This document shows positions 2,710-64,000 of a stretch of DNA of 64,000 bases, in pieces. Every line of letters starts with the position of its first letter. The first letter of the stretch is position 1. The translations under genes were made by a program, and so were the position numbers. This DNA is from Minutocellus sp. GHC0000111 (taxonomy: Eukaryota), in the NCBI GenBank assembly GCA_977018835.1, contig OZ361259.1:3286001-3350000 (forward strand), in the 5' to 3' direction. The notes under the pieces are model-generated. The model was given only the letters and a program-made list of their open reading frames with translations. It was not told the origin of the DNA and did no database searches.

Positions 2710-5300
2710 ATGCGAACTCACTCGACATCTCTGCTGGCCCTGTCTGCATCTGCCGCAGATGCCTTTGTGGCCCCACGTAGTGTATTATCAACGCATATTC
2801 GATTGTTTTCAACGCTCTCACCAGACGAAATCAGCAAAGGCAACAGCGAACATCTCGTACCAGCCCCAGACCATCCGCCGTTACCGGCCTCCAGTCTTCG
2901 GTGGCATGTCGACCCATCAACGTTCAATTTCACCACCACTGGAAAATGGCGGTGCACTGCTCAATCAGGCCCGCGCCCGCTCGGCCATTGAATTCGGCGT
3001 CCACATGAAGCGAGATGGGTACAATTTATTTGTGCTGGGACCACAGGGAATGGGCAAGCGTACCATCGTCAAGAAGTATCTGCAGGAAGTGAGCAGCAAG
3101 GAATCCTCCACCACGCCGCCAGATTGGTGCTACGTGCACAACTTTGTCGATGCCGACAAGCCCAAGGCCATTAGTGTGGCGGCCGGTATGGGCAAGGAGC
3201 TCAAGAAGGACGTTGCGACGCTCACCGAGGAGCTTCAAACGGCCATACCGGAGGCCCTCGAAAAAACGAGCACAAGCAAAAGATTGAGGACAGTACCAAA
3301 TCCGTGTTTGGCGAGAATGAGCGTCAGATTGAGAACATATTTGAGGAAGCAAAGGGGAGCGGACTCTCTATCGCTCGGACGCAGACCGGATCGTTCGTCA
3401 TTGCCGGACCGGAGAAGAAGGAGGACGGCGAGCCCTTCAGTCCGGAAGAAGAGGAGTTCAAGGCCAAAGCCGCGAAAGAGCTGCAGCCTCGAGTCGAGAA
3501 GCTCATCAATGAAGTGCCCAAATTGCGCAAAGAAGCGATGTCCAAGGCAAAGGATTTGAATCGAAATTGTGCCAAGGGAGTAATTGATGACCACATGGCG
3601 TCGTTACGCACAAAATATGGCGAGTTCGATGAAGTCATAGCTCACTTGAACGCCTTACGGGACGATATGATGGAAAATTACGACCGCATCCACTCCGAAA
3701 ACGAGGAGAATGAATCGTCATTATCCATCATGTCCCAACCCAAGCGCCTATCGTTCGAAAAATACCACATCAACTCGTTCGTGGACAACTCTGAAGTAGA
3801 AGGCGCTCCGGTGATATATGAGGAACACCCTTTTCATCACAACCTCATGGGAAGAATCGACCACGCCTCAATGATGGGGTCGCTTGTAACCAATTTTTCC
3901 CTCATCAAGTGCGGTGCGCTACACAAGGCAAACGGCGGATATTTGGTACTTCGTGCGAGGGATGTGTTAATGCAGCCATTTGCGTGGGAATCATTGAAAA
4001 GAGCCATAAGAGGTCACTCGGTGAAGATCGAGAGCCTCGGAGCAGAACTGTCACTAATAAGCACAGTGACAATCCAACCTGAGCCCATCAGTTTGGACGT
4101 AAAAGTGGTTCTTCTTGGTGATCGTATGCTCTATTACTTATTGCAACAGTATGATCCTGACTTCGATGAGATCTTCAAGGTTGCGGCTGACTTCAATGAT
4201 GATGTCGACCGCTCAGATGAGTCCTGTCAGCTATATGCACAGATGCTCGCAACAATCGCGAACTCTGAAGAAACAAGGGCTCTGGACCGAGATGCTGTCG
4301 CCGGTGTAATAGAACAAGCGGCCCGGAGAGTTGGTGATCAAGAAAAGCTTTCTACTCACATGACTACCGTGACTGACCTGCTTCGCGAGGCCGATTTTTA
4401 TGCCGAGGCAGACAGCTCAAGCATAATTTGCGGAAGACACGTTGAGAAGGCACTAGAAGAGCAAATCTATAGAGCCGACAGAGTTCGAGAGCTGATTTAT
4501 GAGCAAATTCGCCGCGGTACACTCATTATAGATGTAGATGGGTCTGCGATCGGGCAGGTTAATGGACTCAGCGTCTTGGCTCTCGGAAAGCTGGCCTTTG
4601 GTCGTCCCTCAAAGATTACGGCAACCACGCGCCTGGGTCGGGGCAAAGTTGCTGATATTGAGCGTGAGGTAGAACTTGGTGGCAGTATACACTCCAAGGG
4701 CGTCATGATTCTCTCGTCTCTATTGGCGCATCGGTACGCAAAGGAGTTCCCACTCGCCGTGTCAGCTAGTTTGGTATTTGAGCAGTCATACGGCCAAATC
4801 GATGGTGACTCGGCATCAATGGCGGAGCTTTGTGCTATTTTATCATCGTTGAGCGGCGTGCCAATCAAGCAGAACCTCGCAATTACTGGCAGTACAAATC
4901 AATTTGGTCAAGCACAGCCAATCGGTGGTGCTACTGAGAAGATTGAAGGCTTCTGCGATGTTTGCAAAGCATCAGCTACAGGCCTCACCGGTGAACAAGG
5001 CGTGCTGATTCCAGAAAGCAACGCCCCTCACCTCATGCTTCGGCCTGATATTGTTGAGGCAGCGCAGCAAGGAAAATTTCATGTCTACACATACAAAAAT
5101 GTTGACGAGGCACTGTCTTTGTTGACTGGGGTAGACGCCGGAGAGCTAGACAGTAAAGGAAATATCCAGAAGGCACATTGAATTTCAAGGTAGATGAGAA
5201 GCTGCACGAGTATTCAATCATACTAAAAAATCTGGAAAGTACCGACGAGGAAGAAGTAATTAATGGAGAGAAAAGGGAAAAGTATTTTTTTACGTTGTAG
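2710..5300 (+). CDS. Plastid-targeted bacterial-type Lon-like protease (AAA_32 + Lon_C, LonB/LonC/YcbZ-like); three apparent frameshifts (~2941, ~3262, ~5161)
   Basis: Presequence MRTHSTSLLALSASAADAFVAP; Walker A GPQGMGKRT; GALHKANGGYL; catalytic Ser in IDGDSAS and Lys in IGGATEKIEGF. The C-terminal YPEGTLNFKVDEKL is recovered by adding one A at ~5161. Confidence 0.85.
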
Positions 5301-11636: not shown

Positions 11637-11698
11637 GTGAAACTAGCTAGACCTCCTCGATAAACGAGTGAAACTAGCTAGACCTCCTCGATAAACGA
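11637..11698. repeat. Perfect 31-bp tandem duplication (gtgaaactagctagacctcctcgataaacga x2) covering the stop codon of the TPR-RING gene
   Basis: Directly visible at 11637-11667 and 11668-11698. Confidence 0.95.
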
Positions 11699-13347
11699 GC
11701 CATCTCTCATTACTCGCATTGATCTCTGCTGTCTGCAGACTGGGCAGGGCATCTGCTTTATAATACGATGCCCGAGGAGAGCTTGTGCCATGTCTTCGGT
11801 TGATATCTTCCTTCCACAATACTGCCGGAAACAATGGTTGTGAAACAAATGGTCACAGCTCAGTGGATTGACAACAGTACCTTCCACCCCAAGCAGCGAT
11901 TCCATACATATAGGATCTGAAGATCAACCTCGCGCCCGGTCTGTTTGAGAGCCTCCGCAAGGCTTACAATATTTCTCTTGTCATCTTCTGCATCTTCATC
12001 TGATCTCGGAGTGTATGTTGGAAGGGGGCGTGACATCCAGGAAAGGCGTCTTGCTCGAATGAGTGTTCGCAACATTTCAATCTCCATTTCCGAGTTGCCC
12101 GCGATATTATAACCGCGGATGCAGGCAGACAAGAGGGTACTTATCATCGGAAAATGCACCACCTCAGTGGAACCGTTGAAAAGTTTTCTACACGTGCTTG
12201 ATACGGCCTCGCACATTTTGTTGACGTGATCGCAATCCATCTTCTTCAGAGTGACGGTCTCGAAAGTCGATTTGATAGAGTTCACATACTGTCTCACATC
12301 TTCCAAATTCAACCCTATCCATTCAACAACAACCAGCCTCAAACGAATGTCAACCATACAGCGCAACACGCCCATGTAGATCATGCCGGGTTTCAAAATA
12401 GTTCAACGAAGACTGAAGTAGGTCAACACCAGCAAGGAGTATTCTTCTGGTTTCCGCCAACCGATTATACAAGCTTGCTCGTTCGTCGTCACTCCACAAT
12501 TTGATTGTAGGGATGTAGGTAGACAAATTGATTTGTGACCGAATCATTTCCTTTATCATGAGGGCTCGGGCTTGCTTGCAATTTAATTCTGCGTGTAAAG
12601 TATTTGGAAGGAAGCCGGCCTCGTGTCCATCATCAGATTTGTCAGAAACATCATTCTGTCACCTTTCAGGAAAGGTCGACAGAGTGCTGCGGCCTCCGAA
12701 CATAACTCAACACTCCTATCGAGATGACCAGCAGCTGAAGCGATTGATATTTTGTTGGGACATTGAGCGTAGTTGTCTCTACACAGAGCCTTTGCAAGAA
12801 TAATTTCAATCTCAGCTCGCTCCAATATGATCTTGACCTTGAGATGAGAATCCAATTTGCCTGAACCAATCGGGGAAATCTCGGAAAGTTCGCGGGTAGC
12901 ATTGACCATCGCAGCGAAATCTACAGAATCTTTGGCGGAGTGCAGCCGATCCAACTTTTCATAAACTTGTGCCAAAAGTTCGTCATAGTATCTACATAGC
13001 CGATTAGCGTGATTGGGGCGCTCATGGACTGTATCATTTTCTTCGTCGATCGTGAGAGCAAGTGTGCAGTGTTCCTTTGCCTTGATGCCCATGCCAAGCA
13101 TCAAGTAGCATTCTGCCGAATTAGAATGCATAGTAAGTTGAAGAGATCGGATAGAGTCTAGAACGCCGTTGTTTCCATCAGAAATATACCCGTCATTTGC
13201 AAGTTTCTCCTCGGCACGATTCAGATGCCAGGGACCGTCGATGTACACATGGATTGCACCATCAAAACTATCTTCGTGGAATAGCTTGTTGCCTTCTTCC
13301 CTTCTCTTATGCGCTGTTTCAAAATACTCTTCCCATGCAGCAGTCAT
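11678..13347 (-). pseudogene. TPR-like N-terminus + C-terminal RING finger protein, broken into about 4 frames; paralog of 32807-34460
   Basis: AHKRREEGNKLF...HSNSAECYL (TPR-like) and PLSCDHLFHNHC...MPCPVCR (RING). Frame changes near 12600, 12400 and 11910. May be assembly error rather than a true pseudogene. Confidence 0.65.
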
Positions 13348-19910: not shown

Positions 19911-20693
19911 ATGACAATGACGACCAGATTGCTTGCGTTCGTCGCCCTCTTCCTTGGCAGTGTCGAGGCATTTGCACCCGCTGTCTCGTCAGGCGCTTTG
20001 AGAATATCTCGTGGTGATAATTCTGCTAGCACATCATGTGCTCGAAATACATGCCACCAATCATTATCAAGCCGACTTTACCTATTTGAAAAGATGTTCG
20101 AAGAGGAAGGTGCCTTGGGCAAGGGCATCACCGTGGGCAAGGTGCAGGTAGCCCTCGATTGCCTCAACCGCGGTTCGGACTCCATCTTTGCCCTACTGGA
20201 AAAGTCCGCCAACAATGGCGGAAGCGACCCGTGGGAGCTGGCCCAGCTCACCAATTCCGTTTGTCTGTCCCTCCTGCGCAAATCCGACGAATGGGTCGGG
20301 GCCTGCTCCGATTCCAAGTGGTTCAAGTGGGAAGACGCCGGCAAGGCGGAAAGTCTGTACAACGACTGGGCCAACCGAGAGGCCGCCAAGTTTGAGAAGG
20401 AGTATGTGCCGACTGCCAGTAGTCGTGCAGATTCCGACACCGTTCCAGGTGGACCGACTACCGTGGTGGTGAGCATCATTCTGGAAATACAGGGCGATAC
20501 AACCAAGTTTGAGGGTGCCGGATTTAGCATTGCGGGTACGAAGGAGGTATTGTCGAGCATTGCCAGCGACGTCAACGTCGAGGGCGGGGAATGCTTGAAT
20601 GCCGTGGAGGTGTTTTGGACGCCAAGCGACAAGGACGAGGTATTGACCAAGCAGGATCTCATCATGGACTTTCCCGAGTTGATTGACTTGTAG
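19911..20693 (+). CDS. Plastid-targeted DUF1517-family protein
   Basis: Presequence ...GSVEAFAP; VGKVQVAL; C-terminal AVEVFWTPSDKDEVLTKQDLIMDFPEL typical of DUF1517. Confidence 0.8.
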   Translation: MTMTTRLLAFVALFLGSVEAFAPAVSSGALRISRGDNSASTSCARNTCHQSLSSRLYLFEKMFEEEGALGKGITVGKVQVALDCLNRGSDSIFALLEKSANNGGSDPWELAQLTNSVCLSLLRKSDEWVGACSDSKWFKWEDAGKAESLYNDWANREAAKFEKEYVPTASSRADSDTVPGGPTTVVVSIILEIQGDTTKFEGAGFSIAGTKEVLSSIASDVNVEGGECLNAVEVFWTPSDKDEVLTKQDLIMDFPELIDL

Positions 20694-20892
20694 TATCCTG
20701 CAACATGTTATTAGGTACAGGTGCATGTAGCTAAAGCAAAGATAAGAACAATGTAGATAGAATCGATAGATATGCTGGGCAGAGTTAGTAATTATTTATT
20801 ACAGTATATATATTGTTACAGTATTTACATTGGAAGTCGGAATCGGAAAGAACAGGAACAGAAAATATACATGCAGTGCTTTTGGACTGGAT

Positions 20893-21480
20893 CTAGCCAG
20901 CTACTCTATTCATCGTTTTGAAAAACGCAAATGGATCATTTGACCAATCTCTTTGATTCATGGTAGCCTCGAAGGCATCACGCTTTGCCCTGCGTTGAGC
21001 ACGATCAGCTGCCTCGGCGGTGGTTTCGGAGTATGCCCTGGCAATATCGTCGGGAGAATTTTCGGCATCCTGGGCTTCAAAGACCGCGCAAAGCGCTGCG
21101 TTTTTATTGGCAAGGAGTTCAGTGTATACCTCGCGGGAGATGAGATGTTCGAGACCTCTAGTGTCTTGTGTGGTTGGGTCGAGGGCAGTCCTGTGGCGGA
21201 TGGCGCGCAGAGTCACGGCGATGTCCTCCTTGCATTCTTGCCGATCCCCTTCATTGAAGTACACGGATGAGATTTGCTCTTGCTCCATGTTGTGAAGGGA
21301 GGCGATTGTCGTCACTTCAACCTGGCTGGAAAATGTGATGGTTAGATGCTTTGCTTTTTTCTGGGGTCTCCGCTTTGGAGCATTTTGTGTATGCGAAGGG
21401 ATCGCGAGAGTTGCTGCGGAGTACAGGTAGGCGGACTCACTTGCAACCGGCGAGGGCAAAGAAGGTGGTGTAGCAAGCAT
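20893..21480 (-). CDS. Hypothetical protein of a lineage-expanded family (V/IxF...DI..T...TRGLEHL motif); paralog of 25285-25779
   Basis: Shares TRGLEHL and RAxxxAxxDA with the ORF at 25285-25779. Confidence 0.7.
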   Translation of the reverse strand: MLATPPSLPSPVASESAYLYSAATLAIPSHTQNAPKRRPQKKAKHLTITFSSQVEVTTIASLHNMEQEQISSVYFNEGDRQECKEDIAVTLRAIRHRTALDPTTQDTRGLEHLISREVYTELLANKNAALCAVFEAQDAENSPDDIARAYSETTAEAADRAQRRAKRDAFEATMNQRDWSNDPFAFFKTMNRVAG

Positions 21481-21951
21481 GGCGAATGAGCAGAGTGGTG
21501 GTGTTAGCTTGTCTATTGCAGTAGAAGGATTTGCGGGCAGGCGTCGGCTGCTGTTTGGCTTACTGCCTCCTGCTTGGAATGATATCGGAATGCAAATCCT
21601 TTGCATTCCGACAGAAAAGGCGGGTTTCCAGGGTGCCTAGGTACGCACTCTCTGCAATAATCAAAGCGTGCACTTATTGCAACTCAAGTTGAACCTCTCA
21701 AGAAAAAAGAAAGTCGAACTTTCGGAAACGAACTGGCGCAAAAAGTCTTTTTGTGCCTGACTTCTCCTTGAACTATCGCAACGCTCGTGGCAAGGAAGTG
21801 CGCACTAGCTAGTAGCGAGCACAGGCAGCCAACACATTGCCGAGAACGTGCCGCACCGTGCAAATCTGCCTCGTGCACATCATTTTTTCTCACCGAAACC
21901 CTCCTTCCAACCCTTCCTCCTTCCTGCGCAATTGATTTGCATTGCAAAACA

Positions 21952-22212
21952 ATGAACATTCTCTCATCATCAAACAACACGGACCTTCGAAGAGTCGATT
22001 GTCATCAAACAAATCCAAAAGCTCGTCGCACTGTTAGCTTTGACAGAAACACCATCATCCTTGAAGTGTCATGTCTTCGAAGCCACACCGAGTCGAAATG
22101 ACCATGTTGTGGCTCACCCCTCAAGACAACCTCCGCATCAAAAACGATGTGTGAAACGACGGACCGTCAAGAACGTGCAAAGAGGATGTGATGAGTCGAT
22201 CATGACCGACAC
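21952..22212 (+). pseudogene. Truncated, frameshifted paralog of the 25285-25779 gene, interrupted by a Copia relic
   Basis: Across two frameshifts it reads RTVSFDRNTIILEVSCLRSHT / EMTMLWLTPQDNLRIKNDV / KRRTVKNVQRGCDES. The paralog reads KVAFVETVVIHEVLSLQSYTDVEMEKCWLTPRDHCRMQKDIKRTTKYMRRGCDES. Confidence 0.75.
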
Positions 22213-22229
22213 ACGGCACCAGCGCGGCA

Positions 22230-22970
22230 GATGGCTCTCTCCGCACGACTGCGACTTGGGCATTGTCGGAACGGAGCATGCGCGTGACGCCATTGTGCCG
22301 AGTGAAATCCGACAAGGTCTTGACGAAAGAAGATTCAGACTGCATGCCACAGACGGCGTCAAACCTTTCGCCAGTGGCTCGGAGGAGTTGACTGATCTTG
22401 CGCTCGACGCGCTGGTCCAAGCAGGTGGTCCATGCAAGCGCTCGACCTCCTTGAGCTCCGGACAAAGCATCATGAGCAAGCTCAATGATGGAACGATCAG
22501 GAACGATGGCCTTGTGTTGAGTCCAGCGTCTGGGCCTCCAATTGTCAAAGAAGTCCCAATCAGTGACGTCATGCAACGCCATCCGCCGAGCAAGAACGCA
22601 ATCCTTCACATCGGAAGGTCCGAACCGCCGCAAGGCACACAGCAGGCGACCGAACATCAGCGACCCAGCCACGGCAGTGTGGTCCCCAACTGTCTCCTCC
22701 GTCGTTTCGGAGCCGCGGATGTCGGCGGCGGTGGCCAGCGCGTCGAGAGCGGCGGTGTCCGTCATGGTTGTCTATTATGGCTGTGTTGGTTGTTTTTCAA
22801 CGCGGTGAAAGCAAGGCAAGATTTTTTATGAAAAAAAATAAAAAAAAAACAAAAGAGCGGCGGCTCGTGGTCCCGCTCAGGCCGAGGGGAGCTTCCCCCC
22901 GAAAACCAAAACCCCGCGGCTCAAATGAACCGGTAACATGAGGTCATCGCCGAAATCAATTGAATGACAT
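22230..22970 (-). mobile_element. Internally deleted Ty1/Copia relic: 5' leader, putative gag start (ATG 22765) fused to an integrase-core fragment
   Basis: AVCGMQSESSFVKTLSDFTRHNGVTRMLRSDNAQV resembles the diatom Copia integrase core (VYGM.SE..F..TL.DFIR..G....L.SDNA). Poly-T leader upstream. Boundaries are approximate and no LTR pair was found. Confidence 0.65.
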
Positions 22971-23275
22971 GTATACCGATCTACATAATATCATGCAACA
23001 TTCTTGTATTTTCTCGTTACATTGTACATGAACATACTACTTTGGAAAAGAAAGTCTATATAATAGATCTTTGTTACCAAATGCATATAAATATAAAGCA
23101 TATTACAATTAGTAATTCGGCCGTACAACGCACTTGCTTGCGAATCAAACTCAAATTCCGTACATTATGAAGAACATTCGACTCGTGACAGGGCTGACAT
23201 GGCAAAGAAGGCATTAAATTCGAACATGATCCGAGTATAATCACATTTAAAAAAATTGGTAAAATGCAGTCATTG

Positions 23276-23605
23276 TCAGGATTTACTGCCCTTGACAGAT
23301 TCATCTGAGCCACAATTTCCTTCATCGTCTCCAAATGATATTTCGTTGTCATCCATGCATTTTTTCAGTGGACGAAAAGGATCCATACAGTCGGTCGCCT
23401 TTTCTGAAGCCTGTACACATGCATGCCATTTTATGAATGCGTCCCGACAGGGTCCATCTAAAAAGAATCTGCAAAATGGGCAGTCCTCATCAATTTTTGG
23501 TGTCGATTCTGGCTTCGAAGAAGCCGCAGGCTCACTTTTTGCATCGATATCATCCCCGTCGCATCCTGCAGGTACATTTGACGAAGACCTCTGCATCAAT
23601 ATCAA
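23276..23605 (-). CDS. Small Cys-rich GCK/CHCH-like protein (5' end unresolved)
   Basis: CPFCRFFLDGPCRDAFIKWHAC...DCMDPFRPLKKCM, a twin-Cys pattern. Confidence 0.7.
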   Translation of the reverse strand: MILMQRSSSNVPAGCDGDDIDAKSEPAASSKPESTPKIDEDCPFCRFFLDGPCRDAFIKWHACVQASEKATDCMDPFRPLKKCMDDNEISFGDDEGNCGSDESVKGSKS

Positions 23606-24163
23606 TTATACTGAAGAAGATACCAACAAAGTTTGGTAACCCGGGTGCCTTTGCTCTTTTCTTGACCATATTCGGGACGTGAGAGGGAACTCTGTGCAAT
23701 CTGCTTGGCGTCGAAAGTAGCCAGGCAAAGCTGATCTACCACCGATGCTAAAAGCTAAATTGGAACGGCGTCGGACAAAAACCCTTGTCACTTTTTGCAA
23801 AGTTCTCATTTGACGCATTCTATCGGTATGCCCAATTCAGGGACGTTCTTCACGGCACTCTAATACGCAGTACCGGTAGTAGTCGTCAACCATCGCATGC
23901 GACTTACAGAGATACAGATGGATGGAAGATAAGAGATGGTCTGTCCGTCACCTTCCCATCACCCATCGCAGCAGCAGCAGCAGCAGCTCTCAGCAGAAGA
24001 TCTCCAGAAGCACAGACGCGCGCCTCAGAACTCATCGCAGATTGCACCCGCCAGAGACGAAGCGAACAGGTACGGAGTGAATCAACTCAGTCCTCGAGGG
24101 GTTGCAAAGAAGAGAAGCGGTTGATCACGAAAGGAAACCTATCCTAATCTGAGCCTCCCAATC

Positions 24164-24949
24164 ATGGCCTCTCTCAACATATCCGCGGCGGCTGTTAATG
24201 CCAAGGAATTCCCACCCGACAAGAACGAAAAATGGGCTGGCATACCACTGGATCACGATCAGTGGGTCCACACGCACAATGCGCTTCGCGTCGAGATGCG
24301 GTCTATGATTGAGGCCCTGGACTCGATGGCTGGGCGACTGAAGACCGAGCGAAATGTGCCAGAGTGGGCAGCAGCTACTATCGGAGCGTGGTGGGAGGGA
24401 CACGTGGCCCATGCCGTCGATCACTGTGAGGCAGAGGAAAAGATGTACCGGCCCTTGCTGAGCACTCGCTTTGTTTGGCCAAAGGAGATTGAAACCATTC
24501 ACAATCAGCTCGACTTTGTTCGCGATAAGGTCGGCAGAGCTGTGTCCAATTTGAGCTCAGACAAGGCATCTCTATCGGCCCTCCGAAATGCAATGGCGGC
24601 TTATGAGAAGACCATGCTTGCGCATTTCGCCGTCGAAGAGAGGGCAGCCCTTCCTCTGATGCGTGAGTACTTCCCGCCCAACCCAGAGATATCAACGCTT
24701 CAGCGAAAAATGCTGGAAAGTGCCCCCGATAATGCCATGGGTGCTCTCATATATGCCATGGGACCGGAGAGGTTTCGATCTGAATTCATGAAAGAACGGG
24801 CGATACCTTTCTTCGTTTGGCACGTGGCTTTCAAAGGTCGATTGGCACGTTACGAGACAGAAATGGTGTCCAAAGTGAAGGCTATTAAAAACGTCGTGAA
24901 GCCCGAGGAGCCGCCAGAAAAGAAGGGCGGGTGGTTCCGATCGGTGTAA
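24164..24949 (+). CDS. Hemerythrin-like (HHE cation-binding) protein
   Basis: WVHTHNALR, HAVDHCEAEEKMYRP, IH, HFAVEE His/Glu ligand pattern. Confidence 0.75.
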   Translation: MASLNISAAAVNAKEFPPDKNEKWAGIPLDHDQWVHTHNALRVEMRSMIEALDSMAGRLKTERNVPEWAAATIGAWWEGHVAHAVDHCEAEEKMYRPLLSTRFVWPKEIETIHNQLDFVRDKVGRAVSNLSSDKASLSALRNAMAAYEKTMLAHFAVEERAALPLMREYFPPNPEISTLQRKMLESAPDNAMGALIYAMGPERFRSEFMKERAIPFFVWHVAFKGRLARYETEMVSKVKAIKNVVKPEEPPEKKGGWFRSV

Positions 24950-25284
24950 TATAACTGCTTTGGTTGTTGGACTTGAAAGAGGTTTTACAAATGAAAGAGA
25001 TATTTTGGAAATGAAAAGTAATGGTTCCATTGGTACATTCTATTCCATGGGATAAGCTAAACTTTGTACCTGTACCAAGAAGGGCATGGCGATCTACGGT
25101 AGCTCTAAGGTACCAAAGGGTACACTACGCCACATTACTCTGGACAATACTACACGTAACTGGCTGATTGCTCAGCTCTTAGAAATGTAAGATGCAAACA
25201 TCGAACAGGATTGAGAGTAACAAACATTATGTACATCAAGTGGTTAATATTCTACATGTATTTCAGGTGAGGGATAAGTTGCAT

Positions 25285-25779
25285 TCACGAATAAATGACA
25301 TTCTTCTTGACAAATTCGGCATCAAGATGTGCCTTTTGCACGGCACGATCCCGAGCGCGCTTCGACAGCCTTGAAGAAGTGGCGGCAAAGTTCCTTGATG
25401 AATGTAGTTCATTCTTCGACTGTTCGGCGAGGACAGCTTGGACCAAAGTATCTCTCTCGTGTGTGAGTTCTCGAAAGATGTTGATATCTCTCAAATGTTC
25501 CAGGCCCCGTGTGCAGAGCCCATCATGCGTCGACTCGTCACATCCTCTTCGCATGTACTTGGTTGTTCGTTTGATATCCTTTTGCATACGGCAATGGTCT
25601 CGAGGGGTGAGCCAGCACTTTTCCATTTCGACATCGGTATAGCTTTGAAGACTTAGCACTTCGTGGATGACGACGGTTTCTACAAAGGCTACTTTGTTGC
25701 GATGGGAACGAAAATTGGCCGAGCGGGCATCGTTGTGGTGGGCAGGAAGCCGAAGGCGATGGAACGAGTGCTCTTTCAT
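25285..25779 (-). CDS. Hypothetical protein, same family as 20893-21480
   Basis: KVAF...CW....DIKRT...CTRGLEHL...AVLAEQ...ARDRAVQKAHLDA. Confidence 0.65.
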   Translation of the reverse strand: MKEHSFHRLRLPAHHNDARSANFRSHRNKVAFVETVVIHEVLSLQSYTDVEMEKCWLTPRDHCRMQKDIKRTTKYMRRGCDESTHDGLCTRGLEHLRDINIFRELTHERDTLVQAVLAEQSKNELHSSRNFAATSSRLSKRARDRAVQKAHLDAEFVKKNVIYS

Positions 25780-26506
25780 CCTTCGGGTAGGTGGGTTCGA
25801 TCAACTCACTACTTCGAGTACAGCTCTGTGGCAACGCTTTTGAGGAAACTGTCCGAGCATTATGCCTTTTTTGGTTTTCGCGGTAACGCCGATGCATGTA
25901 GGAATTCCTACTTGAACTGGATGACGCAGCAGCATGAACTCTTATGCGTGATCACGTGTAAACACAATGACGCAGGATGCAGCCTTTTGGCGTGTTCCAT
26001 TTGTGTGAGTCAGTTTCATAATCATTCCGGATGCCCGGGTTACACCACATACTTGCAGCATCTCTATTATGCGACATCTTGAAGTTGTGTACAGAGTTAC
26101 TAAGGGCGCCGTTTTTTTTGTGTGTCTTTCAGCCTCGTTCTGTGATAGGATACTCCCGCCAATAAACATGCCGGAAAGTTTGACACTCCCGCCACTTGAC
26201 CCGGCTGGCCGGCGATGTTGGCAAGTGCGGACTTTCTTTTTCCAGCGGTGAGCCTACACTGAAATTGAGTCAGTCCAAAATCATTGATACGACCAGCTTA
26301 TTGCAGAGCACAAAAATCGTCCCACCAACGGATTTTCGCGATCCTTGAAGTAGAAATCGGGATCAATCGAGTGCCCCTTCCTCTTGCGTTGCGCGTGACG
26401 ATGGCCGGCCGACGGTTCGCCCTCTCGCCGCCGCCGACCGCGCGCGCCCCTGCTTCATCGCTGTCTACTCGTTGCGCCTTGCTTGTTGAGAATACACATA
26501 GAAATA

Positions 26507-40649: not shown

Positions 40650-42070
40650 AGAAGCGAAGCGTTATCTTAGATATATCCCATGTATGTTATTCAGAGCTTG
40701 AGCGGTGGTTTGGATAGTCACTGATCTTGCAAGAATGCCTTTCCCAGCAGCAAAATATGTGACACGCGAAATTTTGATGTTCCGGACTGCAGGACAGGAT
40801 GTGCACATCGTAGGAGCATCAGCGAAGCTAAATCCAACACCACAAGCATAGGATCGCCTTACATGTAAATACGATGCATAAGAGGTTTTCAAAGCTTGAG
40901 CGGCGGTTTCTTTCTCTGCGCGCTTCTCGAGATCACCTATTATACTTCGAGGGGGCTGGCGGTTCAAAAAAACTCCAAAATCCGGGACTCTAAGGGACTA
41001 GAGGCATCAAAATCGCAAGAAGTGAGTGCAGACTTTAACATAGAACCACATCGTAACCTTAGACATGATCTAAAGGAGGTATCAAAGGCTTGGGCGAAGG
41101 TTTCCTCAACTACTTGGCCTCCAAGGATGACTATTATTGTTCCCGAAGGTCAACGAAGGCAAATCTTGAGATTTTTTGCGGGCTGGTAATATGTAAAACT
41201 CGAGGTTACGAGTGCAAACTCCAACATAGGAGCATATTGTTACCTTGTGTATGACCCCCGCAATATATTCAAAGCTTGGTCGAAGGTTTCGACTGCTACA
41301 GGGCCCTCATGGTTGCCTATGATGGTTCCCGGGGGGCTGATGATGCCGAAAACTGGGGTTTTGGCGAAGTGATGGCATATGAACCTCGATCTTATGGGTG
41401 CAAACTCCAACATAGAACCACAGCGCAAGTTTACGTAACACCCACAGAAGGTATTCAAAGCCTGGACAGAGGATTCGGCTGCTACTTGGCCTCCAAAGGT
41501 TACTGTTATTGTGATCGGAGGTCAATTAGAGAAAATTCTGGGAATCTGGGTGGGAGGACGGCACATAAATCTCGATCTTATGAGTGCAAGCTTAATAATA
41601 GAAGCATGGCGTTACCTTTGGTATGTCCCAAGGAAGGTACCCGAGGCTTGGGCGAAGTTTTCCACTACTGATCCGCTCTCAAGGACAACTAGGTCGTCAG
41701 CGCCAGATTTGGGAAGTTTTTGCGAGATAGTGATGCATAAAACTAGAAAAAATACATGTAAGTATAAAGTCAAGCATCGATGCACAGGGGTGCCTTAGGT
41801 ATGACCCAAATAGGAGGTATCTAAGGTTTGGGCGAACATTTTCACTGCTGATTGGCTCTCAAGAGAGACTACAACCACATGTTATCACCGCGTGGTAATG
41901 ACGCCCCTTGATTTTGAGATTCGGGGCAAATAAATGAAATTCGCTGTTGAAGTGTAATTAATTTCTAACACAGACTCACAGCGTTACCTGATGATCCCCC
42001 GGAAGCAATTAGTCAAGGCTTGGGGGTAGAGTTCCAGCACTTATCGCCCCCCAAGGGTGGCTATCACTCC
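40650..42070. repeat. Degenerate tandem array of about 8 units, period 180-198 bp
   Basis: The gcttg-like core of the conserved aggtattcaaagcttgggcgaaggtttc block recurs at 40696, 40894, 41088, 41274, 41460, 41646, 41826 and 42018. gagtgcaaactccaacatag recurs at about 41025, 41210, 41396 and 41582. Confidence 0.85.
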
Positions 42071-50320: not shown

Positions 50321-51461
50321 CTACCTTTGAAGCTCCTCGTAAATGCCCTCCAAATCATTGTATTCACACGCCACATATTTTTGCATCTGCTCTATGATAT
50401 CTAATTCTTGGAATGATTCAAAGTGCTCCTTCGTACGAGCAATCAGCATGCCCGATATCTCTCCAAGTGCCGCATTGAACCCATGTTTGTCCTTGTCGAA
50501 GTGATCCTGGTGCTGCCGGGGGATGACGATGCATCGGATTGTACTATGGGCACTTTCGTCATTGCTATTGCCGTCGCTCTTTTCCTGGATAAAGAGCACA
50601 TTGTGCGGTATCCTCTGCTCGTGTAAATGTCGCACGAAGGACGCCATCGATTGGGAAAGGCATTCATCCACACTAGCTTGAAACGCAAAGCACGGGACGG
50701 TCCAATGCAACTCCTCAACCCGGCATTTATTCTGCAGATAATTTTCCGTCACAACCCGCTTGGTGGATGCATATACAATGGGAAAATTGGTTCTGCCATC
50801 GGGAAGCAGTCTCTCACCACGTGCCTCATGATCCAACTCGGACGGGTACAAAATGTGAAGATGCAAATGATTGACGGACGAGAAGGCACCGAGGCTGTTG
50901 AAACCGATGCAGAATGTGTCGGCGGATGGATTTGTCGACTTGCCGCTACTGCTGCTACTATCGTGGAGAATTTCGTCTGTGGCATGGTCAATGTCTCTCC
51001 GCAACAGTCTTATAGCCAAATCGATTGCATCCGATGTCAATTGCTGCGGCAGACATTGCTCCGCAAATGGTACGAGCAGACCATGGCCAAACATGAGCGG
51101 GCTGACGTTGACCAGTATGCGATGACTCTGCTCATCTCCATCTTGTAGTACCGCCAGAACCTCCTCGTCACCCCTAACCTTGTTGAAGTTGAATTTATTC
51201 TGATCAAAAGACTCGTCCATGTTCACCTTTTGCGTGACCGTGGCGGGTCTCTTCAAGGCAAACAAGCTGGGCTCGTGTTCGGTCACCAGCCTGAATTGCC
51301 CTGGCACGATGCGACGACGGAGGACGTCGGCGGCTAGCGGATCGTTGCGAATGATGGAGGATTGGCGGCATCGCTCGAATTGAGATTTTATTAAGTGCGA
51401 AAAAGTTTGTGATGGGTGAGGTCCTTGAAGGGGGTAGTGCTTTGCAGTGGTGGGAGGACAT
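50321..51461 (-). CDS. GDPGP1: GDP-D-glucose phosphorylase (GDPGP1/VTC2 HIT family); probable frameshift near 51400
   Basis: FNFNKV..EE, VNVSPL..GH.LLVP, IGFNSLGAFSSVNHLHLH, IPHNV, AALGEISG. Confidence 0.85.
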
Positions 51462-51521
51462 TAAGGGTACATACATTATTTATTCAATTCAGAGAATTAC
51501 CTGTGTGTATGTGTGTACGTA

Positions 51522-53426
51522 TTAGAAAAAGTCTGCCGCCGCCCCTCCCTTGTTTCGTTTGGACCTGCTGTGCCTGCCGCCCTGTCGAGGAGATCGGGAG
51601 CAACTTCGACTCAGTGGCCCGCCAGCAGCAGCATCGGGTCCACCACAATTGTCTACAACTCTTCCTTTCAGTATTTCGGCTTTCTTCTTGCGACTGTCCA
51701 AAAGTTTGTCGGTAACTGTCCCAGCCATGATCTCTAACCGCCGCTTCTTCTCCAGCAGCTCCTCCAATCTCTGCTCCGCATCTTCCACCTCTTTGCGTTC
51801 CGATTCGATGTCAACCGTGCACTCTTTCAATTGTGCGGTTCGTTCCGATAGGTTTTGGCCCTGCTTGGTCAGTACGCCCAGCTGCGTCCGAACCATACCG
51901 CGCAAGTTCTGTACCTCGATGGAATTTTTCAGCTCCGTCTGTGTTTGGGCCTGTTGCGATATCGTCGATTGCAGCTCCAACCGTCGTAGACGAAGCTGTT
52001 CCATTTGGTCTGCATCGCCATTGTCGACTGTTGTGCCGTCATTCTCGGCCTCACTAGCTGCGCCGCTTCTCAGATTATCATCATTGTCGAGGTCGTCATC
52101 GCCTTCATCATCGCTAGTCATCTCCATACCACCATCAGCCGCCATCTCTGCATCGTCATTACTATGACCAACTTCATCATCATCGACCTCCTCCTCTTCT
52201 AACTCCAAACTCTTTCGTTTCTCCTGCTGCTTCTGTTTGAGCAGCTCCGCCTTTCGTAGGAGCTCTGCTCTCCGCCCCAACACCTCCTTTTGGCGCTTCT
52301 GCAGCTCTGTCTTCTTCTCCTCCCGCTGCGGAGTCGGCAGGCGTGACTTTGATTCGGCGTCATTATCATTTTCTTTCGTATCTGACGTCCTCGGTTGGAT
52401 GTATACCAGTTCATTGGGTCCGGACGCCGATATGTTTTGTACGAGTATAGTGGGTCGACGCAACGCCGCCAGGTCGGTCAACTTCCGCTTCTTCCTCGGG
52501 GGTGCCTTCGACGGAACCTCCCCCGGCACCGGCGTCGCTTGTCGGCTCACCGCAAACGCTTTCTCTTGTTCCTTCTTTCTGTGCAGCAAACTGCGCTTCT
52601 GGGCGTTAGTGGCCTTGGCCTGGGCGGCGGCCAACTTCTTCTGCGCCACCTCCAACTCGAGCCGCTTGCGCTTGAGGGCCAGCCGTTCTCGCTTTTGTTC
52701 GGTGGAGAGTTCGGCGGTTGCGGGCGCGGGTGCTGCTGCCTCCGCAACTGCCGCTGGTTTGGAATCAATCTCACCGGTACCATTGATATCGCCAGTAGCA
52801 TCGGCAGTATCTGCTGCCATCTTCTGTCGTTTCTTCTCTGCTTGCCGCTGCTGCTCCATGTGCCGCCGCTTTTTCTCCTGTTGAATCCGCTTTCGTATTT
52901 TGGCAGCCCTCCTGTGCAGTTCCGTCACCACCTTTTTCAAATTTCCTTGGACGTCCTCTGCAAAATCGGCCATCCAAAGCTCCTCATCGGCCGGATCGCC
53001 CTCAAACACCGCCTCGTCCTTGGCCACCTTTTGCACACTGCTAAGCAATACCGTAATCTGCTGCCCGTTGTCCAGCAGCATTCGAACCTTGGGCTCGGCA
53101 TACGTGCCCGAAAATCCCACGCAGAATCCCTGACGGTGCAGGTGGGGGCTGTTGGGGCGCCGGTCGGCCACGTACGTGTTGACCAGACGATCGCCGACGG
53201 TCAGATCGTGGTGTTGATACAATTTTTTGGGGAGGGGCTGAGAAGAAGAAGACGACGAGTTTGGACTGGCGCTGGTTGTGCTGGTATCGGCGGAAGCAGC
53301 AGCCCCAGCAGCAGCGGCGATTGCTGTGCTGGTTTCACCGCCGGTGAGGCCGGCGACAGCCTGTGCAAATTCTCCGACGGCATCTTGCAATTCTTTGATG
53401 GCGCCGGCCAATTCGTTGTTGGGCAT
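51522..53426 (-). CDS. Hypothetical coiled-coil, charge-rich protein
   Basis: 634-aa ORF with long K/E/R/Q helical segments and NLS-like PRKKRK. Confidence 0.7.
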   Translation of the reverse strand: MPNNELAGAIKELQDAVGEFAQAVAGLTGGETSTAIAAAAGAAASADTSTTSASPNSSSSSSQPLPKKLYQHHDLTVGDRLVNTYVADRRPNSPHLHRQGFCVGFSGTYAEPKVRMLLDNGQQITVLLSSVQKVAKDEAVFEGDPADEELWMADFAEDVQGNLKKVVTELHRRAAKIRKRIQQEKKRRHMEQQRQAEKKRQKMAADTADATGDINGTGEIDSKPAAVAEAAAPAPATAELSTEQKRERLALKRKRLELEVAQKKLAAAQAKATNAQKRSLLHRKKEQEKAFAVSRQATPVPGEVPSKAPPRKKRKLTDLAALRRPTILVQNISASGPNELVYIQPRTSDTKENDNDAESKSRLPTPQREEKKTELQKRQKEVLGRRAELLRKAELLKQKQQEKRKSLELEEEEVDDDEVGHSNDDAEMAADGGMEMTSDDEGDDDLDNDDNLRSGAASEAENDGTTVDNGDADQMEQLRLRRLELQSTISQQAQTQTELKNSIEVQNLRGMVRTQLGVLTKQGQNLSERTAQLKECTVDIESERKEVEDAEQRLEELLEKKRRLEIMAGTVTDKLLDSRKKKAEILKGRVVDNCGGPDAAAGGPLSRSCSRSPRQGGRHSRSKRNKGGAAADFF

Positions 53427-53834
53427 GGTGCATCAGTCAGCAGAGAGTCAGTCCAACGGAGTAGAGTCAGAGGTGGCTGACGGCCACATGGCGGGCTGCG
53501 GTTGCTGAAAATCACGACTACGGCGACTGCGCATTTGAGGGACGTACGTATCCCGTACAGATTACGTACATACGGACAAGGGCTCACGTACGTACCGGCC
53601 CGCCAAAAATCGACATCTCAACGCATGCAGAGCGGCGAACCGGGTGAAGCGAACATCAACCAGAGCGGAGCGAAGCAGCAGTTCGAGTATTGCTACGGAC
53701 CGTCTAACCAGTCTCTACCGGCAGGCAGCTGTTATTTCTGCCGAGCATTTTGCTATTCTAATTCATTCTACGATCGTACGCATCGTCACAGAACTCACAC
53801 AACTATAGGATTTTCCGCAGAACATTTTTTTCTC

Positions 53835-55613: not shown

Positions 55614-55798
55614 GGTGGTAGATGAAAGAAAGAAATTCATTACAACGACCGGCCAAATCAAAATGATTGATAACATTTGCCAAGCGGCTAACATGGTAGA
55701 GCTAGATAACATCAAACAAATAGACATTTCATAACTATAATATAGCATGGACCCTCGGCTTCTTGCCTAATGGAGGAGTATAAACAAAACCCTGCTCT

Positions 55799-56653: not shown

Positions 56654-56860
56654 GATGCTGGAAATGATAAAGAAATCAACGTATAACAGCCAGCTCAGTG
56701 GCGCAGATCAGATTGCATTGTGAGCATGGAGATCGGTAGCGCGGTGCCGGTGAGCTGCAATCCAAAATTGGCCTCATAACCTGATGGGGAAAGAAAGGCA
56801 GCAGATTGAGATGAGGCCGTGAGAGAGTAGTGAAGACTCGGTACCAATAGCCTTTCAATT

Positions 56861-57433: not shown

Positions 57434-57553
57434 TGAGGTGCAGATGCTGCTCGTCGTAAATTGCCATAGCTACTTTGGTATAGCAAAAAATTGGGATAAA
57501 TGCACGATAATGCAAGTGAATTGCAATAATAAGCTTAGCATAATACTGACTCT

Positions 57554-59214: not shown

Positions 59215-62200
59215 TTATGTGCATTTTTCAACATCTCCCTCAAAATCTAACTTCTTCTTTGCTCCACTTGTCGCCTTCAATTTTGCTCGCAAGGCCATGT
59301 CGGCTTTATCAATCTGCTGCTCATTGTATCGTCGCGTCGCTTCTCCAGCGCGTGCATGGGAGGCTTTCTTGACAATCTTGGTGAATATTATCTTCTTTTC
59401 GCCTTCCGGTAGGTCAATATCGTTTTCTGCTTTGTTGAATAGTCCCCACAAGTCTTCGTCGCTGATGATGGTCTTGTATTCTCCTTGATTGCCTCTTTGC
59501 CGACTTCTTCGATGGTCTTTTCATTCACTAATTCCCTTGTTCTTTTCATTACCATCCTTCCAAAGGGCACATATTGGGGGGCCAGGAGGAATAGGCCACC
59601 GCGATTTCGTATCTGGTCGATTGGAGCGTAATATTTCTGTAAGTATCCTGCGTCTTTTATTGCTTCGCGATGCAACAGTCTCATTGATTTCACATGCAGC
59701 ACTGCCTTCCGATCACTGTTCTCACACGTATTTTCATCCTCGTCTTCGTTGTCTTCTTCGTAGAAGAAGCTTTCAGAGTCTTGCCACTTCTCACGATATT
59801 GATCGAGCACTTCTTTCATGGCCCAACCGACGAAGTTGGTTACTTCCGAATTCTCTTCGTCCTGGTCGATGGATCCCTTTGCGTTACCGTTGGTGGTGAT
59901 AGCGGCGGTACTGGAATCACTGGGCGATGTGAAAGTATCGATGATGGCTTCATCAAGCCAATTACTGAAAAGCCGAGCGAGATGTTGCTCCACGATGGCG
60001 GCGGCAAGATGAGACTGGGACAGAGACGCCGGCAGCAGCTTCCGCAGATCTTGAAATTTCTTGCTAGTAATGAAGTCATGCTGGTGCCACCAGAATGACT
60101 GTTTATGGCCGGACTTCTGCATGATGCTCTTGTCTAGTGATGTAAATGCTGTGAGTATCATTTGCTGGCACGCCAAATTGAAGAGCACTTCGTCTTCCTC
60201 ATCTAACGATGCGATTGCTTTGAAACATTTCTCTTCTTCCGTTCCAACGCTCACTCTTGCCATTCCCTCAAATGTTTCGTCATCCAGCAGGTAGTCAGAG
60301 AAGTTGGAATCAATGTTGTATGTCGCCATCGTTTTGTGCAGACTGCGCATGCGCTCGGTGGAGCCAACCGCCGGTTGATCTCCCTCGCCATCCTCATCGT
60401 CGCAAGGAGGAAGTATCGAGATGGATGCCTCTGCCGGCTTCTTTTTCTCGTCTCGCCACGACTTTACCACCAGAGCTCGGCGATCGTCTGTGCGCCCCAT
60501 CACCGACTCCAGACGATTCCATGACACTGCTACCTCCGTGGTGTCGCCTTCGTAGTTTGGGTTGGATTCGTTCATAATCTGGATGCTGTCTTGAGAGTTG
60601 ATGGCTGTTATTGCGGACGGATAGTTGTGGACAGAGTCGCCGCCCAAGTATCGAATGTGTGAGAAGGTAGCTTCAAGCGATGACTGGTTGGCATGGAGGA
60701 ATTTGACGTACGAGGGAGGGTTCGGTAGCAGGAAGACGAGTCGGCAGCATTGAAAGAAGCCGCAAACACCAATCCGAAGGTTTTTGTACGTGGTGGTAGA
60801 AATATAGGACTTTTCCCACGCAGGGTTGCCTTGTTGCTTGAGCTGCAAAGAGGCGAGTCGCCAAGCCTCGAAGTACTCCAAAGCAGACCTAGTCTCTTTC
60901 TCCTTCTCGTCGATGTTGTCTGGGGTGACACTGACCTCGCCATTCAAAAAGTTTTCAATAAAAATAGTCCCGACATGAAAGTTGTACTCTACGTGAGCCA
61001 GGTCTTGCCGTAGCTGTTGAAAGTTGGCGTCGCCTAGGACATTGGAGATTTTGCTAACTTCGCTCGCGTTGTCGGACGACGGAAAGACCGTCGTTCATCC
61101 CGAACGAAGCTCACCATGGTGCCCCCCGCTCTTGACCGCTGCACATTTGCAAGGTAAGACATGGGCATTCCCGAGGCTGGCCGACACCACTGCGCTGCTC
61201 ATGCGAAAGTTTCAGCTTCATTGGACTGTTGTTGCATGAGAAAACATAATTCAAAACAATCAACCTGTGTTTGAGCACGCGAAAAAGGGCCACGGATGAG
61301 AAGTGACACCAAGAGAGCCACAGTCGCCCAATCCACCCAGAATTGCAGAGATGCACGCCTGAGATGTGCATGAAAATGTTTGTTTGGTTGATTGTTGTGT
61401 GTTTGATTCGTGTCCGCCCCCGCATCGGCCGCCAATGAGAGCAAAATTTCGTCCGGCGTCGTCGTTTTTCTCGCGAAACTTTGCCCCCACCCACCAAACA
61501 CATGTTGTGCTTGGAATTTTTGAGCTGCGCCTTCGATGCCACATTTCTACAGGGTGTCTAGATGTGTGGCATTTGCTCAGAATTCTCAATTCTCCCATTC
61601 ATTCCAGAGATTCTTGGGGGCAAAGGTCTGCCGGACGGCGAATTTCGCGTTCTCCCATGCTTCGCCGCGTTGAAAACGGTCGACGGAAAGACGAATGTCC
61701 AGTTTTCGGGTCGAGCGGCTCACCTAAAGCTGGACCAACTCACCACCCTGGGAGAAAAACGCGCCGTGCGGGGCCTCCCTGCAAGCTGGCGAGCTGAGTT
61801 TTGAATCTCACCCAAAATGAAGCCCACCAGGTCGCCGACTGCAGCCGTCTAGTCCAGAGCCAGCTCAGCTGCATCGCCGGCAGCGTCCTTGACAGCCTCC
61901 TTGGCGAGCTCCTCCAAGAGCACTGACCTCGCCGAAGCATGGTCGCTGCCAACAACGTGGTCAGCAGCCGTCTTGAAGAGGTCAAGCATGACGCCATCCT
62001 TCTCGAGGTCAAAAGCGACTTTGCAAGCATCACTCTCCAGCTTTGTCTTGGCGTAGCGCAGGCGGTCCCTGGTGGAGCGGGCAGCTTTCCGTTGGTTCTG
62101 CTGGCGCTCCTTCAGCCTCGTCGGGGTCAGGTGCTTGATCGGAGCTCGGCTGCTGGCGCCGACCTGCTTGGCGCGATTCAGTTGCTTCCTGTTCTCCCGT

Positions 62201-63367
62201 CGGAGGAAGTTTTTCCTTTCAGTCGAGCACGGACCACACAAAATGCCATCCCGCTCGAATTCACCTAAGGAGACCAGCCCACACGAAGCGTCGCCGAACG
62301 ACGGACGGACAAAAATTGACCCAACTCCTTTCTCCTAGCTTAACGCTAGCAAAATGCCGATGGCTGCCCCGCAAAATACGCATTGCTGCCTGACCCTCCT
62401 TGGACGCAACAAATCCCTCTCCTTGCATGCTGTGCATTCGCACCAGTGAAGCAGTCAAGTCGGCGGCGGATGGCAGCACCAAGCCAACCTCGTCGTACAG
62501 CCGAGGATGTTTATCAGGACTGATAGCAGAAAATGCGGTTGCACAGCCATCACACACGTCCACCGGAGCCTCGGAAGTTGCACCAATAAATATCGAACAG
62601 TCCGGGCTCCGCCATGCTCCATCCTTTTGCGTGAAAGAGAAGTATTTGGAACACACTCCACGACCAATGTCTCCAGCTTGCAGCACGCTCAACAACTGAG
62701 GATGGCCACCAATACCGGACCGACACGCATCACAGATTTGCACTACGCCAGATCCATCGCCACCGCCAGCACCGGTGGAACCACCACTAATGCCTGTGGT
62801 GTCACACGCCGGTGTAATCGGAGCGGCCGCCCCATTGCCAACCTTCGCTTTCTTGGGGGTCTTGTGCGTTCCCAAAGGGACCGACGGATGTTGGTCCGCC
62901 TCCAAGAGCCGCTTGACGCTGGCTGCCGACCGAGAGCTTTTGCCACCGAGCACCATCATCAAGGATCGGGACTGATCGATAGTATGGTCTGGAGGCCAGA
63001 AATATTTACCATTGAACTCGTTGATGGCTTCTGCAAAACCGTGTCTCTTTGCAATCTCCGCAGGAACGGGCGTTGTCGGAAAATGGCTCTTGCCGTCTGT
63101 TTCTCCAGCAAAGTATTGAAGCGCGTCAGCAGAGAAATGATGCTTCGCAATCTCGTACCTCTCAACATCAAATTTGAATCCAGATAAAGTGAGATTCTTC
63201 TTCAGAACTGCCTGGTATTTTTTACTCTTGTCACTATCTTTCAATCTGAACTCGAACCCGCCGCTTCTGATGTTGTTGTGAGACTCGTCGATAATGCGAC
63301 GTATCTTGTCGCAATCGTCATGCCTGCACAGGCATTTCCTGGCACCAGCAGGGGTGCCGCTGCTCAT
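59215..63367 (-). pseudogene. P-element/THAP9-like transposase, disrupted (frameshifts ~62328 and ~59480, TAG 61849, central deletion, nested insertion)
   Basis: N-terminal THAP-like KCLCRHDDC...IAKHHF; coiled coil; QNSARQLAGRPRTARFSPRV; C-terminal catalytic-Glu motif HANQSSLEATFSHIRYLGG (compare xNQDxLExxFxxxRxxGG). The central Asp motifs were not found. Confidence 0.78.
61086..61681. mobile_element. Nested ~600-bp non-coding insertion with short TIRs and an 8-10-bp TSD
   Basis: Direct repeat cgacggaaagac at 61077-61088 and 61681-61692. Ends gaccgtcgttca... / ...ttgaaaacggtc are imperfect inverted repeats. Confidence 0.6.
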
Positions 63368-64000
63368 GACCGCGGCAACCAAAGGGCACACGACAGGTGA
63401 TGTGCATCCGCGGTCGATGCTCGCGAAAAGAAGAACCGATGCCGGCCAATAAGTACAATGGAGGGCAAGTTCCGACGCGTGGCGCGTGCGCGCAAAGGAG
63501 GGTTGGAAAATTCGATGTGCGCTCGCGCAAGGCACTTGGGCCAAAATTAACGGATTCCACATTCACCCCAAAAAAAGAGTGCCGAACATGGTGAGCGCAA
63601 AAGCGCGCGCGTGGACCACCCTGTTATTTGTTATTTGCTCTTGATGCCGGCTGCGCGGCAGCATGGCGAAAATGAGCACCCCCCGTTTCTTGAGCTCCCG
63701 AAAATAAGCAAGAAACCCTCATAAGCCGATAGGAACTCCAACGCCTGAGCCACTCATTCAAACCTGATGATAGCCACCACAATGAGGTGCCTTTCGAAGC
63801 GTCCCCTTGCCGCCGCTGCATTCGCTGCTGTAGCATCTGAACCTACGTTAGGGCCCCATGGCCCTTGGCCTCTCGCATCTTGCGTGCAAGCATTTTCTTC
63901 TCCTCCCAGAATAACCAGACTTGCGCGCACGCAACGATGTGTCACAACGTCCACCACTGACGCACGAGACACCGAAGCCCCTAAATTGCCCGACTCGCAT

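What the first reader, a model, noticed from the sequence alone, without database searches (positions are those of the whole stretch)
21815..22772. TpA desert over a Copia relic: candidate repeat-targeted TpA->TpG/CpA hypermutation ('reverse RIP')
Seen: by manual count only one TpA (22035) in 958 bp of roughly balanced base composition, with abrupt return to TpA-rich DNA after ~22970. Even the strongly codon-biased Lhcr exon has about 9 TpA in 540 bp. The 214-aa relic ORF has no Tyr, but has Cys/His where Tyr is expected (AVCGM vs integrase VYGM; LLCAL, KDCVL, ALHDV, TQHK, LAHD, TTCL) and Thr for Ile (DFTR vs DFIR). These fit TAY->TGY/CAY and ATA->ACA. Established: fungal RIP and 5mC deamination drive C->T, and RIP creates TpA. 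This pattern is the opposite (A->G/T->C at TpA). Inference: a genome-defence or heterochromatin-linked adenine deamination/modification process acting on both strands of silenced DNA. I know of no characterised enzyme for it; a literature check is needed.
Basis: partly seen in the sequence, partly recalled or inferred. Interest (0 to 1): 0.9.

Follow-up and report, generated by a model that had tools for sequence, protein, structure and literature searches.

The report
TA-erasing mutator caught in diatom repeats
A 1-kb patch of scrambled repeat DNA in this alga (likely a diatom) has lost every TA step but one, and TA sites beside it differ between chromosome versions as TA versus CA or TG, which likely marks a still-active local mutator of the kind reported in 2026 in an unrelated alga.

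Summary
The TpA desert is real: 1 TA in 958 bp (o/e 0.02), with TG+CA raised, and contigs from four public runs show the same sequence. It is not one Copia relic. It is a mosaic: a dead fragment of a host gene paralog, a 50-bp high-copy repeat, a ~100-bp integrase-like scrap (Copia identity not confirmed by any tool) and a duplicated unknown piece. Direction is TA>CA/TG: 6 of 8 paralog TA sites became CA/TG, and other copies of a second TA-poor repeat (61.0-61.7 kb) keep TA at 4 sites. Around the desert 11 of 15 A>G/T>C variants between runs sit on TA, against 2 of 11 in a control stretch; they reach 1.4 kb into host DNA and tend to fall on one strand (12 of 16 neighbours, p=0.04). The signature is in print for viral inserts of Bigelowiella natans (bioRxiv 2026), and this scan noted it before in other diatom-like genomes. 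I found no paper on it in diatoms. Likely mechanism: a chromatin-targeted enzyme deaminating A in TpA on DNA; the enzyme is untested. New here: signs of recent activity, collateral damage to host DNA, and strand clustering.

The parts
21815..22772 (.). TpA desert (1 TA in 958 bp), TG+CA enriched
   Evidence: same sequence in contigs of public runs
22035..22222 (+). Broken fragment of a host gene paralog (137 of 183 aligned bases identical to the gene at 25285-25800); 8 paralog TA sites read 5 CA, 1 TG, 1 AA, 1 TA here. 21922-22201 is missing from another version of the locus
   Evidence: joint 21921->22202 in 4 of 4 runs
22202..22250 (.). Short high-copy repeat (about ten times flank depth), no TA; in the other version of the locus it abuts a filler with telomere-type TTAGGG units
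   Evidence: tables 2, 4, 5c
22251..22350 (-). Integrase-like scrap (likeness to Copia integrase is recalled, not shown by a tool); 71% identical over 34 aa to P0003, which has Ile-Arg-Tyr where the window has Thr-Arg-His
22351..22772 (-). Unknown reading frame start with no family match; 22378-22494 also lies in a diverged copy that continues differently left of 22351
22124..22765 (-). 214-aa Tyr-free ORF, likely a chance read-through because loss of TA removes TAA and TAG stops (a 291-aa frame is open on the other strand too)
   Evidence: inference
22773..22970 (.). Partly depleted edge (5 TA); 3 of these 5 read TG or CA in other runs (22774, 22777, 22934)
23259..24200 (.). Halo in host DNA (GCK-domain gene and spacer): 7 of 34 TA sites read CA or TG in other runs, six of them T>C on the + strand; the other version is rearranged at about 23385-23549
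25285..25800 (-). Open host paralog used as the reference for direction (13 TA, o/e 0.41)
61039..62266 (.). Second TA-poor tract (8 TA in 1228 bp): a 702-bp high-copy insert and the adjoining part of a multi-copy element with terminal inverted repeats (58572-63593)

Best explanation
This patch of repeat debris has had its TA steps turned into CA or TG on both DNA strands by a local process, likely a host enzyme that is drawn to silenced repeats and would deaminate the A of TpA to inosine, which is then copied as G. Shown: the loss of TA, the gain of TG/CA, its presence in independent sequencing runs, the direction at the sites with a TA-bearing relative, and an excess of TA-site variants around the patch. 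Inferred: that the target is set by repeat or heterochromatin state and not by sequence family (a host paralog fragment, spacer DNA and a DNA-transposon-like element are all hit); that hits come in episodes on one strand and spill about 1.4 kb into flanking host DNA; that the process is recent, since the changes differ between versions of the locus. Untested: the enzyme, the chemistry, the chromatin state, and any defensive benefit.
For: TA o/e 0.02, other AT dinucleotides normal. Paralog: 1 of 8 TA kept against 100 of 168 other dinucleotides (p=0.009), and 6 of the 7 losses are CA/TG. Variants in 20600-26200: 11 of 15 A>G/T>C on TA (14% of A/T positions are in TA; p=4e-7), against 2 of 11 in the control (Fisher p=0.015); per TA site 11 of 207 against 2 of 248 (p=0.004). 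Four of them also stand in run X4 from a second study (22934, 23669, 23864-23880 cluster). Second tract: other copies carry TA where the window has TG/CA at 61365, 61369, 61411, 61658, and 61365 occurs as TA, TG and CA in three copies (read by eye from the 24 of 191 loose ends shown). Same-strand neighbours 12 of 16 (p=0.04). Precedent with de novo mutations in B. natans.
Against: No intact copy of the desert's repeat parts was found, so no full substitution table. The run variants have no outgroup; counted in both directions, TA<->TG/CA transitions are 13 of 36 near the desert and 6 of 40 in the control, p=0.06 only. The paralog is 75% identical and is not the direct ancestor; it also shows 6 of 12 CG read as CA/TG, so other decay acts too. 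Most of the terminal-repeat element keeps a normal TA level (58572-61038 o/e 0.59), so being repeated is not enough. Contigs may mix versions, so only variants within about 30 bp are surely on one molecule. No whole genome was held, so no genome-wide link to repeats and no enzyme search.
Confidence: 0.6

Rival explanations
1. Same targeting, but the thymine is the modified base: T in TpA is oxidised (hydroxymethyl- or formyl-uracil, by a TET/JBP-like enzyme; recalled) and mispairs with G.
For: TA>CA on one strand is TA>TG on the other, so every count here fits it equally.
Against: No positive evidence; nothing here shows a modified T. The B. natans authors favour adenosine deamination, also without proof.
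Confidence: 0.15
2. An error-prone polymerase (polymerase-eta-like, A>G at TA and AA; recalled) fills gaps during repeated break repair at an unstable locus.
For: The locus is rearranged between versions at 21921, 22970 and about 23385-23549, one junction has a telomere-type filler, and the same-strand variants lie beside a junction.
Against: AA and TT are not depleted (o/e 1.19, 1.08) and 13 of 19 paralog AA are kept; near-complete loss of TA over 958 bp needs many rounds.
Confidence: 0.12
3. Genome-wide TpA mutability or GC-biased gene conversion, visible only where selection has lapsed.
For: TA is low everywhere (o/e 0.56); the both-direction variant test is only p=0.06.
Against: Adjacent spacer DNA keeps TA (o/e 0.94 at 22971-23258); GC is only 55%; control A>G/T>C variants are at background on TA, 2 of 11.
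Confidence: 0.07
4. A-to-I editing of retroelement RNA before reverse transcription.
For: A 5' U preference is known for ADAR (stated in the preprint); an integrase-like scrap is present.
Against: Both strands are hit, and so are a host paralog fragment, host spacer DNA in place, and an element with terminal inverted repeats.
Confidence: 0.03
5. Sequencing or assembly artefact on modified DNA.
For: The window's platform is unknown and the best-matching run may be its source.
Against: Contigs of four runs, up to three samples and two studies, agree and show further TA losses; a protein from another assembly (P0002) has the same Tyr-poor frame.
Confidence: 0.01

Closest known systems
TpA hypermutation of integrated viral DNA in Bigelowiella natans (Mettrop et al., bioRxiv 10.64898/2026.01.13.699255)
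   Same: TpA>TpG and TpA>CpA at DNA level, confined to regions, leaving TA-poor and TG/CA-rich tracts; TA-poor coding sequences there are enriched in transposon domains; enzyme unknown, ADAT-like deaminase proposed.
   Different: Different supergroup (likely a diatom; the preprint's text has no 'diatom'). Targets here are kilobase patches of repeat debris and a host paralog fragment, not 25-186 kb viral inserts; depletion is nearly complete (o/e 0.02 against 0.45 for their virus region). Strand clustering and spill into host DNA are not discussed in the parts read. No de novo rate here.
Repeat-induced point mutation (RIP) of ascomycete fungi (recalled; also summarised)
   Same: Local, dinucleotide-specific, repeat-associated mutagenesis; same-strand runs and leakage into flanks resemble what I recall of RIP.
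   Different: RIP is C>T and makes TpA; this removes TpA. No link to a sexual stage, to homology pairing or to a RID-type enzyme was tested.
Polymerase-eta A>G errors at WA motifs; ADAR and APOBEC hyperediting (recalled)
   Same: A>G with a 5' T preference, clustered on one strand.
   Different: AA is untouched here; both strands and non-retroelement DNA are hit.

Membership tests
B. natans-type TpA hypermutation | A>G/T>C changes concentrated on TpA | tested here: met
   11 of 15 variants and 6 of 7 paralog losses
B. natans-type TpA hypermutation | TpA depletion with CpA+TpG gain | tested here: met
   TA o/e 0.02; TG+CA 162, above 66 of 66 tiles; TG+CA o/e is 1.27-1.40 by part, under the preprint's own 1.52 cut-off for its genome
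B. natans-type TpA hypermutation | Regional, not genome-wide | tested here: met
   Within this window only: 11 of 207 against 2 of 248 TA sites; both-direction test p=0.06
B. natans-type TpA hypermutation | Target is foreign DNA (virus or transposon) | tested here: inconclusive
   Multi-copy pieces are hit, but so are a host paralog fragment and host spacer; no family match for the repeat pieces
B. natans-type TpA hypermutation | About 1000-fold raised de novo rate, active in some lines only | not testable with these tools
   Needs mutation-accumulation lines
B. natans-type TpA hypermutation | ADAT2/3-like candidate enzyme in the genome | not testable with these tools
   No whole genome held
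Fungal RIP | C>T transitions that create TpA | tested here: not met
   TpA is lost; CA and TG are raised
Ty1/Copia retrotransposon | Integrase core (rve) match | tested here: inconclusive
   No Pfam or PDB match for the ORF, the 50-aa piece or P0003; a piece this short and decayed can be missed; likeness is recalled only
Ty1/Copia retrotransposon | LTR pair, gag-protease-integrase-RT order | tested here: not met
   No direct repeat around the desert; no other domain found

The most novel reading that the evidence does not exclude
Diatoms run an active, strand-processive DNA adenine-editing defence that erases TpA in silenced repeats, leaks over a kilobase into neighbouring host genes, and goes along with chromosome breaks healed by telomere repeats; shared with Rhizaria, it would be an old anti-repeat mutator of the SAR group, the mirror image of fungal RIP, and a natural double-strand-DNA adenine editor.
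Probability: 0.3. Interest if true: 0.9.

Novelty: new member of a known kind. Interest (0 to 1): 0.62.

Why it matters
Only one preprint that I found describes this signature, in one rhizarian alga, with no enzyme. A diatom case would put it in a second supergroup branch that has genetic tools, so the enzyme becomes findable by knockouts. The variants between versions of this locus give a read-out that needs no long experiment. A natural enzyme that turns A to G in genomic DNA would interest genome-defence and base-editing research. It also matters for annotation: loss of TA removes TAA/TAG stops and Tyr codons, makes false long ORFs and hides transposons from homology searches.

Tried and rejected
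Whole-genome scan: no genome held. Intact family members: 4 hits among 1.84 billion representatives, one being the window's own protein; none longer; 3 near-length hits; none in viral contigs; the single metagenome locus L001 is a chance match in a bacterial glycosyltransferase operon and was dropped. Pfam and PDB gave no integrase match. The protein atlas gave no answer. Supplements of PMC2806351, which might hold diatom Copia proteins for comparison, could not be read. In one search only 40 of 298 variant rows were shown, all left of 58375, so no substitution table for the second element. One loose-end comparison (61696-61707) needed a gap and was left out of the count. ApT-linked (6mA-type) decay rejected: AT o/e 1.04. 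Tandem repeats do not explain the desert.

Full report
Observation. 21815-22772 has one TA (22035), o/e 0.02 against 0.56 for the window, at 55% GC. The one-TA span is 960 bp; elsewhere the longest TA-free gap is 305 bp and 100 Markov simulations reach at most 412 bp. Against 128 other tiles only TA is extreme (z=-4.9); AA, TT, AT and CG are ordinary. TG+CA is 162, above all 66 non-overlapping tiles, so most of the roughly 31 missing TA are matched by a TG/CA surplus of about 24. The organism is likely a diatom: the light-harvesting gene at 27 kb has its best solved matches among fucoxanthin-binding proteins (that those entries are from diatoms, and that the ASAFAP leader is diatom-type, is recalled). 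No whole genome was held.

Not an artefact. Contigs of runs X1-X4 (up to three samples, two studies) cover the desert and restore no TA within 22036-22772; X4 has no cover at 22657-22843. These are assembled contigs, not raw reads, and X1 may be the window's own source.

Anatomy. The desert is a mosaic. 22035-22222 (+) is a frameshifted fragment of a host gene family, 137 of 183 bases identical to the open gene at 25285-25800; a third, more distant member lies at 20896-21636. 22202-22250 is a short repeat at about ten times flank depth. 22251-22350 (-) is the integrase-like scrap; it is 71% identical over 34 residues to P0003 and recurs in P0005/P0006 in another context, but no Pfam or PDB search names it, so 'Copia' is recalled only. 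22351-22772 has no family; part of it lies in a diverged copy that continues differently. No LTR pair was found. The 214-aa ORF runs through all four pieces and ends antisense in the host fragment; it is likely a by-product of lost TAA/TAG stops. Another version of the locus, at about half depth in 4 of 4 runs, lacks 21922-22201 (replaced by a short filler with TTAGGG-type units) and 22971-23258, and is rearranged inside the GCK-domain gene at about 23385-23549. Protein P0002 from another assembly reads across that first junction.

Direction. Of 8 TA sites in the host paralog, the desert keeps 1 (the one at 22035) and has 5 CA, 1 TG and 1 AA; other dinucleotides are kept 100 of 168 times (p=0.009). 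A second TA-poor tract, 61039-62266 (8 TA), covers a 702-bp high-copy insert and part of a multi-copy element with 62-bp terminal inverted repeats. Among the 24 of 191 loose ends shown, other copies have TA where the window has TG or CA at 61365, 61369, 61411 and 61658; 61365 is TA, TG and CA in three copies, and 61360 is TG here and CA elsewhere (by eye). The window has few TA there, so the reverse test is weak.

Recent, local and clustered. All 36 variant rows for 20600-26200 were used; some at 22408-22464 come from the diverged copy. 11 of the 15 A>G/T>C rows fall on TA, where 14% of A/T positions are in TA (p=4e-7); 2 more rows show TA in another run where the window has TG. In the control (40 of 298 rows shown, all at 50469-58374, complete for run X2's four long contigs) 2 of 11 fall on TA (Fisher p=0.015); per TA site 11 of 207 against 2 of 248 (p=0.004). 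Counted in both directions the contrast is weaker, 13 of 36 against 6 of 40 (p=0.06). All 13 lie within 21670-24197 and none among the 12 rows outside (bounds chosen afterwards). Seven of 34 TA sites at 23259-24200, in host DNA, are hit. Six in a row are T>C on the + strand, three within 17 bp; 22774 and 22777 are both A>G. Neighbouring hits share a strand in 12 of 16 pairs (p=0.04); only pairs within about 30 bp are surely on one molecule. The variants have no outgroup.

How it likely works. Shown: TA-specific transitions on both strands, in place on the chromosome, in patches. Inferred: repeat or silenced-chromatin state recruits a mutator; each episode marks one strand over tens to hundreds of bases; replication fixes TA>TG on the marked strand, read as TA>CA on the other; rounds repeat until TA is gone. 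I commit to deamination of A on DNA (confidence 0.6 for the whole account). The spectrum cannot tell this from a modified T. Polymerase eta is disfavoured because AA is spared. Being repeated is not sufficient: 58572-61038 is multi-copy and has TA o/e 0.59. CG is read as CA/TG at 6 of 12 paralog sites, which fits methylation of a silenced copy; transposons are targets of CG methylation in diatoms (PMC9998398, passages), but methylation was not measured here.

What is known. I read parts 1-3 of 5 (abstract to conclusion) and term passages; its supplements are closed and may hold strand data. It reports 231 of 302 de novo mutations in two viral inserts of Bigelowiella natans, nearly all TpA>TpG/CpA, about 1000-fold above background, TA-poor tracts with transposon domains, and an ADAT2-like candidate without proof. 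The text does not contain 'diatom'. Searches for a diatom report found none: TpA+CpA+TpG+diatom 0 papers; none of 25 listed papers held 'TpA dinucleotides'; searches listed nothing relevant (listings and abstract starts only). The library lacks most subscription journals. The scan itself has noted TA deserts in other diatom-like genomes three times; those notes are unchecked and are not counted as support. No note covers this genome or sequence.

Verdict. Real, not new in kind: a likely second-lineage member of the B. natans-type process, failing RIP membership on its defining C>T change. This locus adds variants between versions, a halo in host DNA and a hint of strand clustering. Interest 0.62.

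Noticed in passing
window 21921-22202: Another version of the locus replaces 280 bp by a short filler with telomere-type TTAGGG units next to the 50-bp high-copy repeat; it may mark break healing or a telomere-linked element.
   Followed up: partly
window 58572-63593: Multi-copy element (about eight times flank depth) with 62-bp terminal inverted repeats, 87% alike, and broken frames without Pfam match; this copy carries a 702-bp insert (61039-61740) at about 30-60 times flank depth that other copies lack. TA loss is centred on the insert and the next 500 bp.
   Followed up: partly
window 23276-23605: GCK-domain gene; the other version of the locus is interrupted at about 23385-23549 by sequence whose two shown 30-letter ends have no TA.
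   Followed up: partly
window 20896-21636, 22035-22222, 25285-25800: Three members of one gene family with no Pfam match within 5 kb; only the middle one is broken and TA-free.
   Followed up: partly
window 41023-41863: Four or more diverged 186-bp tandem units in a CG-poor stretch (o/e 0.64-0.76) with high TA.
   Followed up: no
window 3175-5178: LonB-type AAA protease domains (Pfam calls the lid archaeal) in a eukaryotic genome.
   Followed up: no
window 11637-11699: Perfect 31-bp tandem duplication.
   Followed up: no
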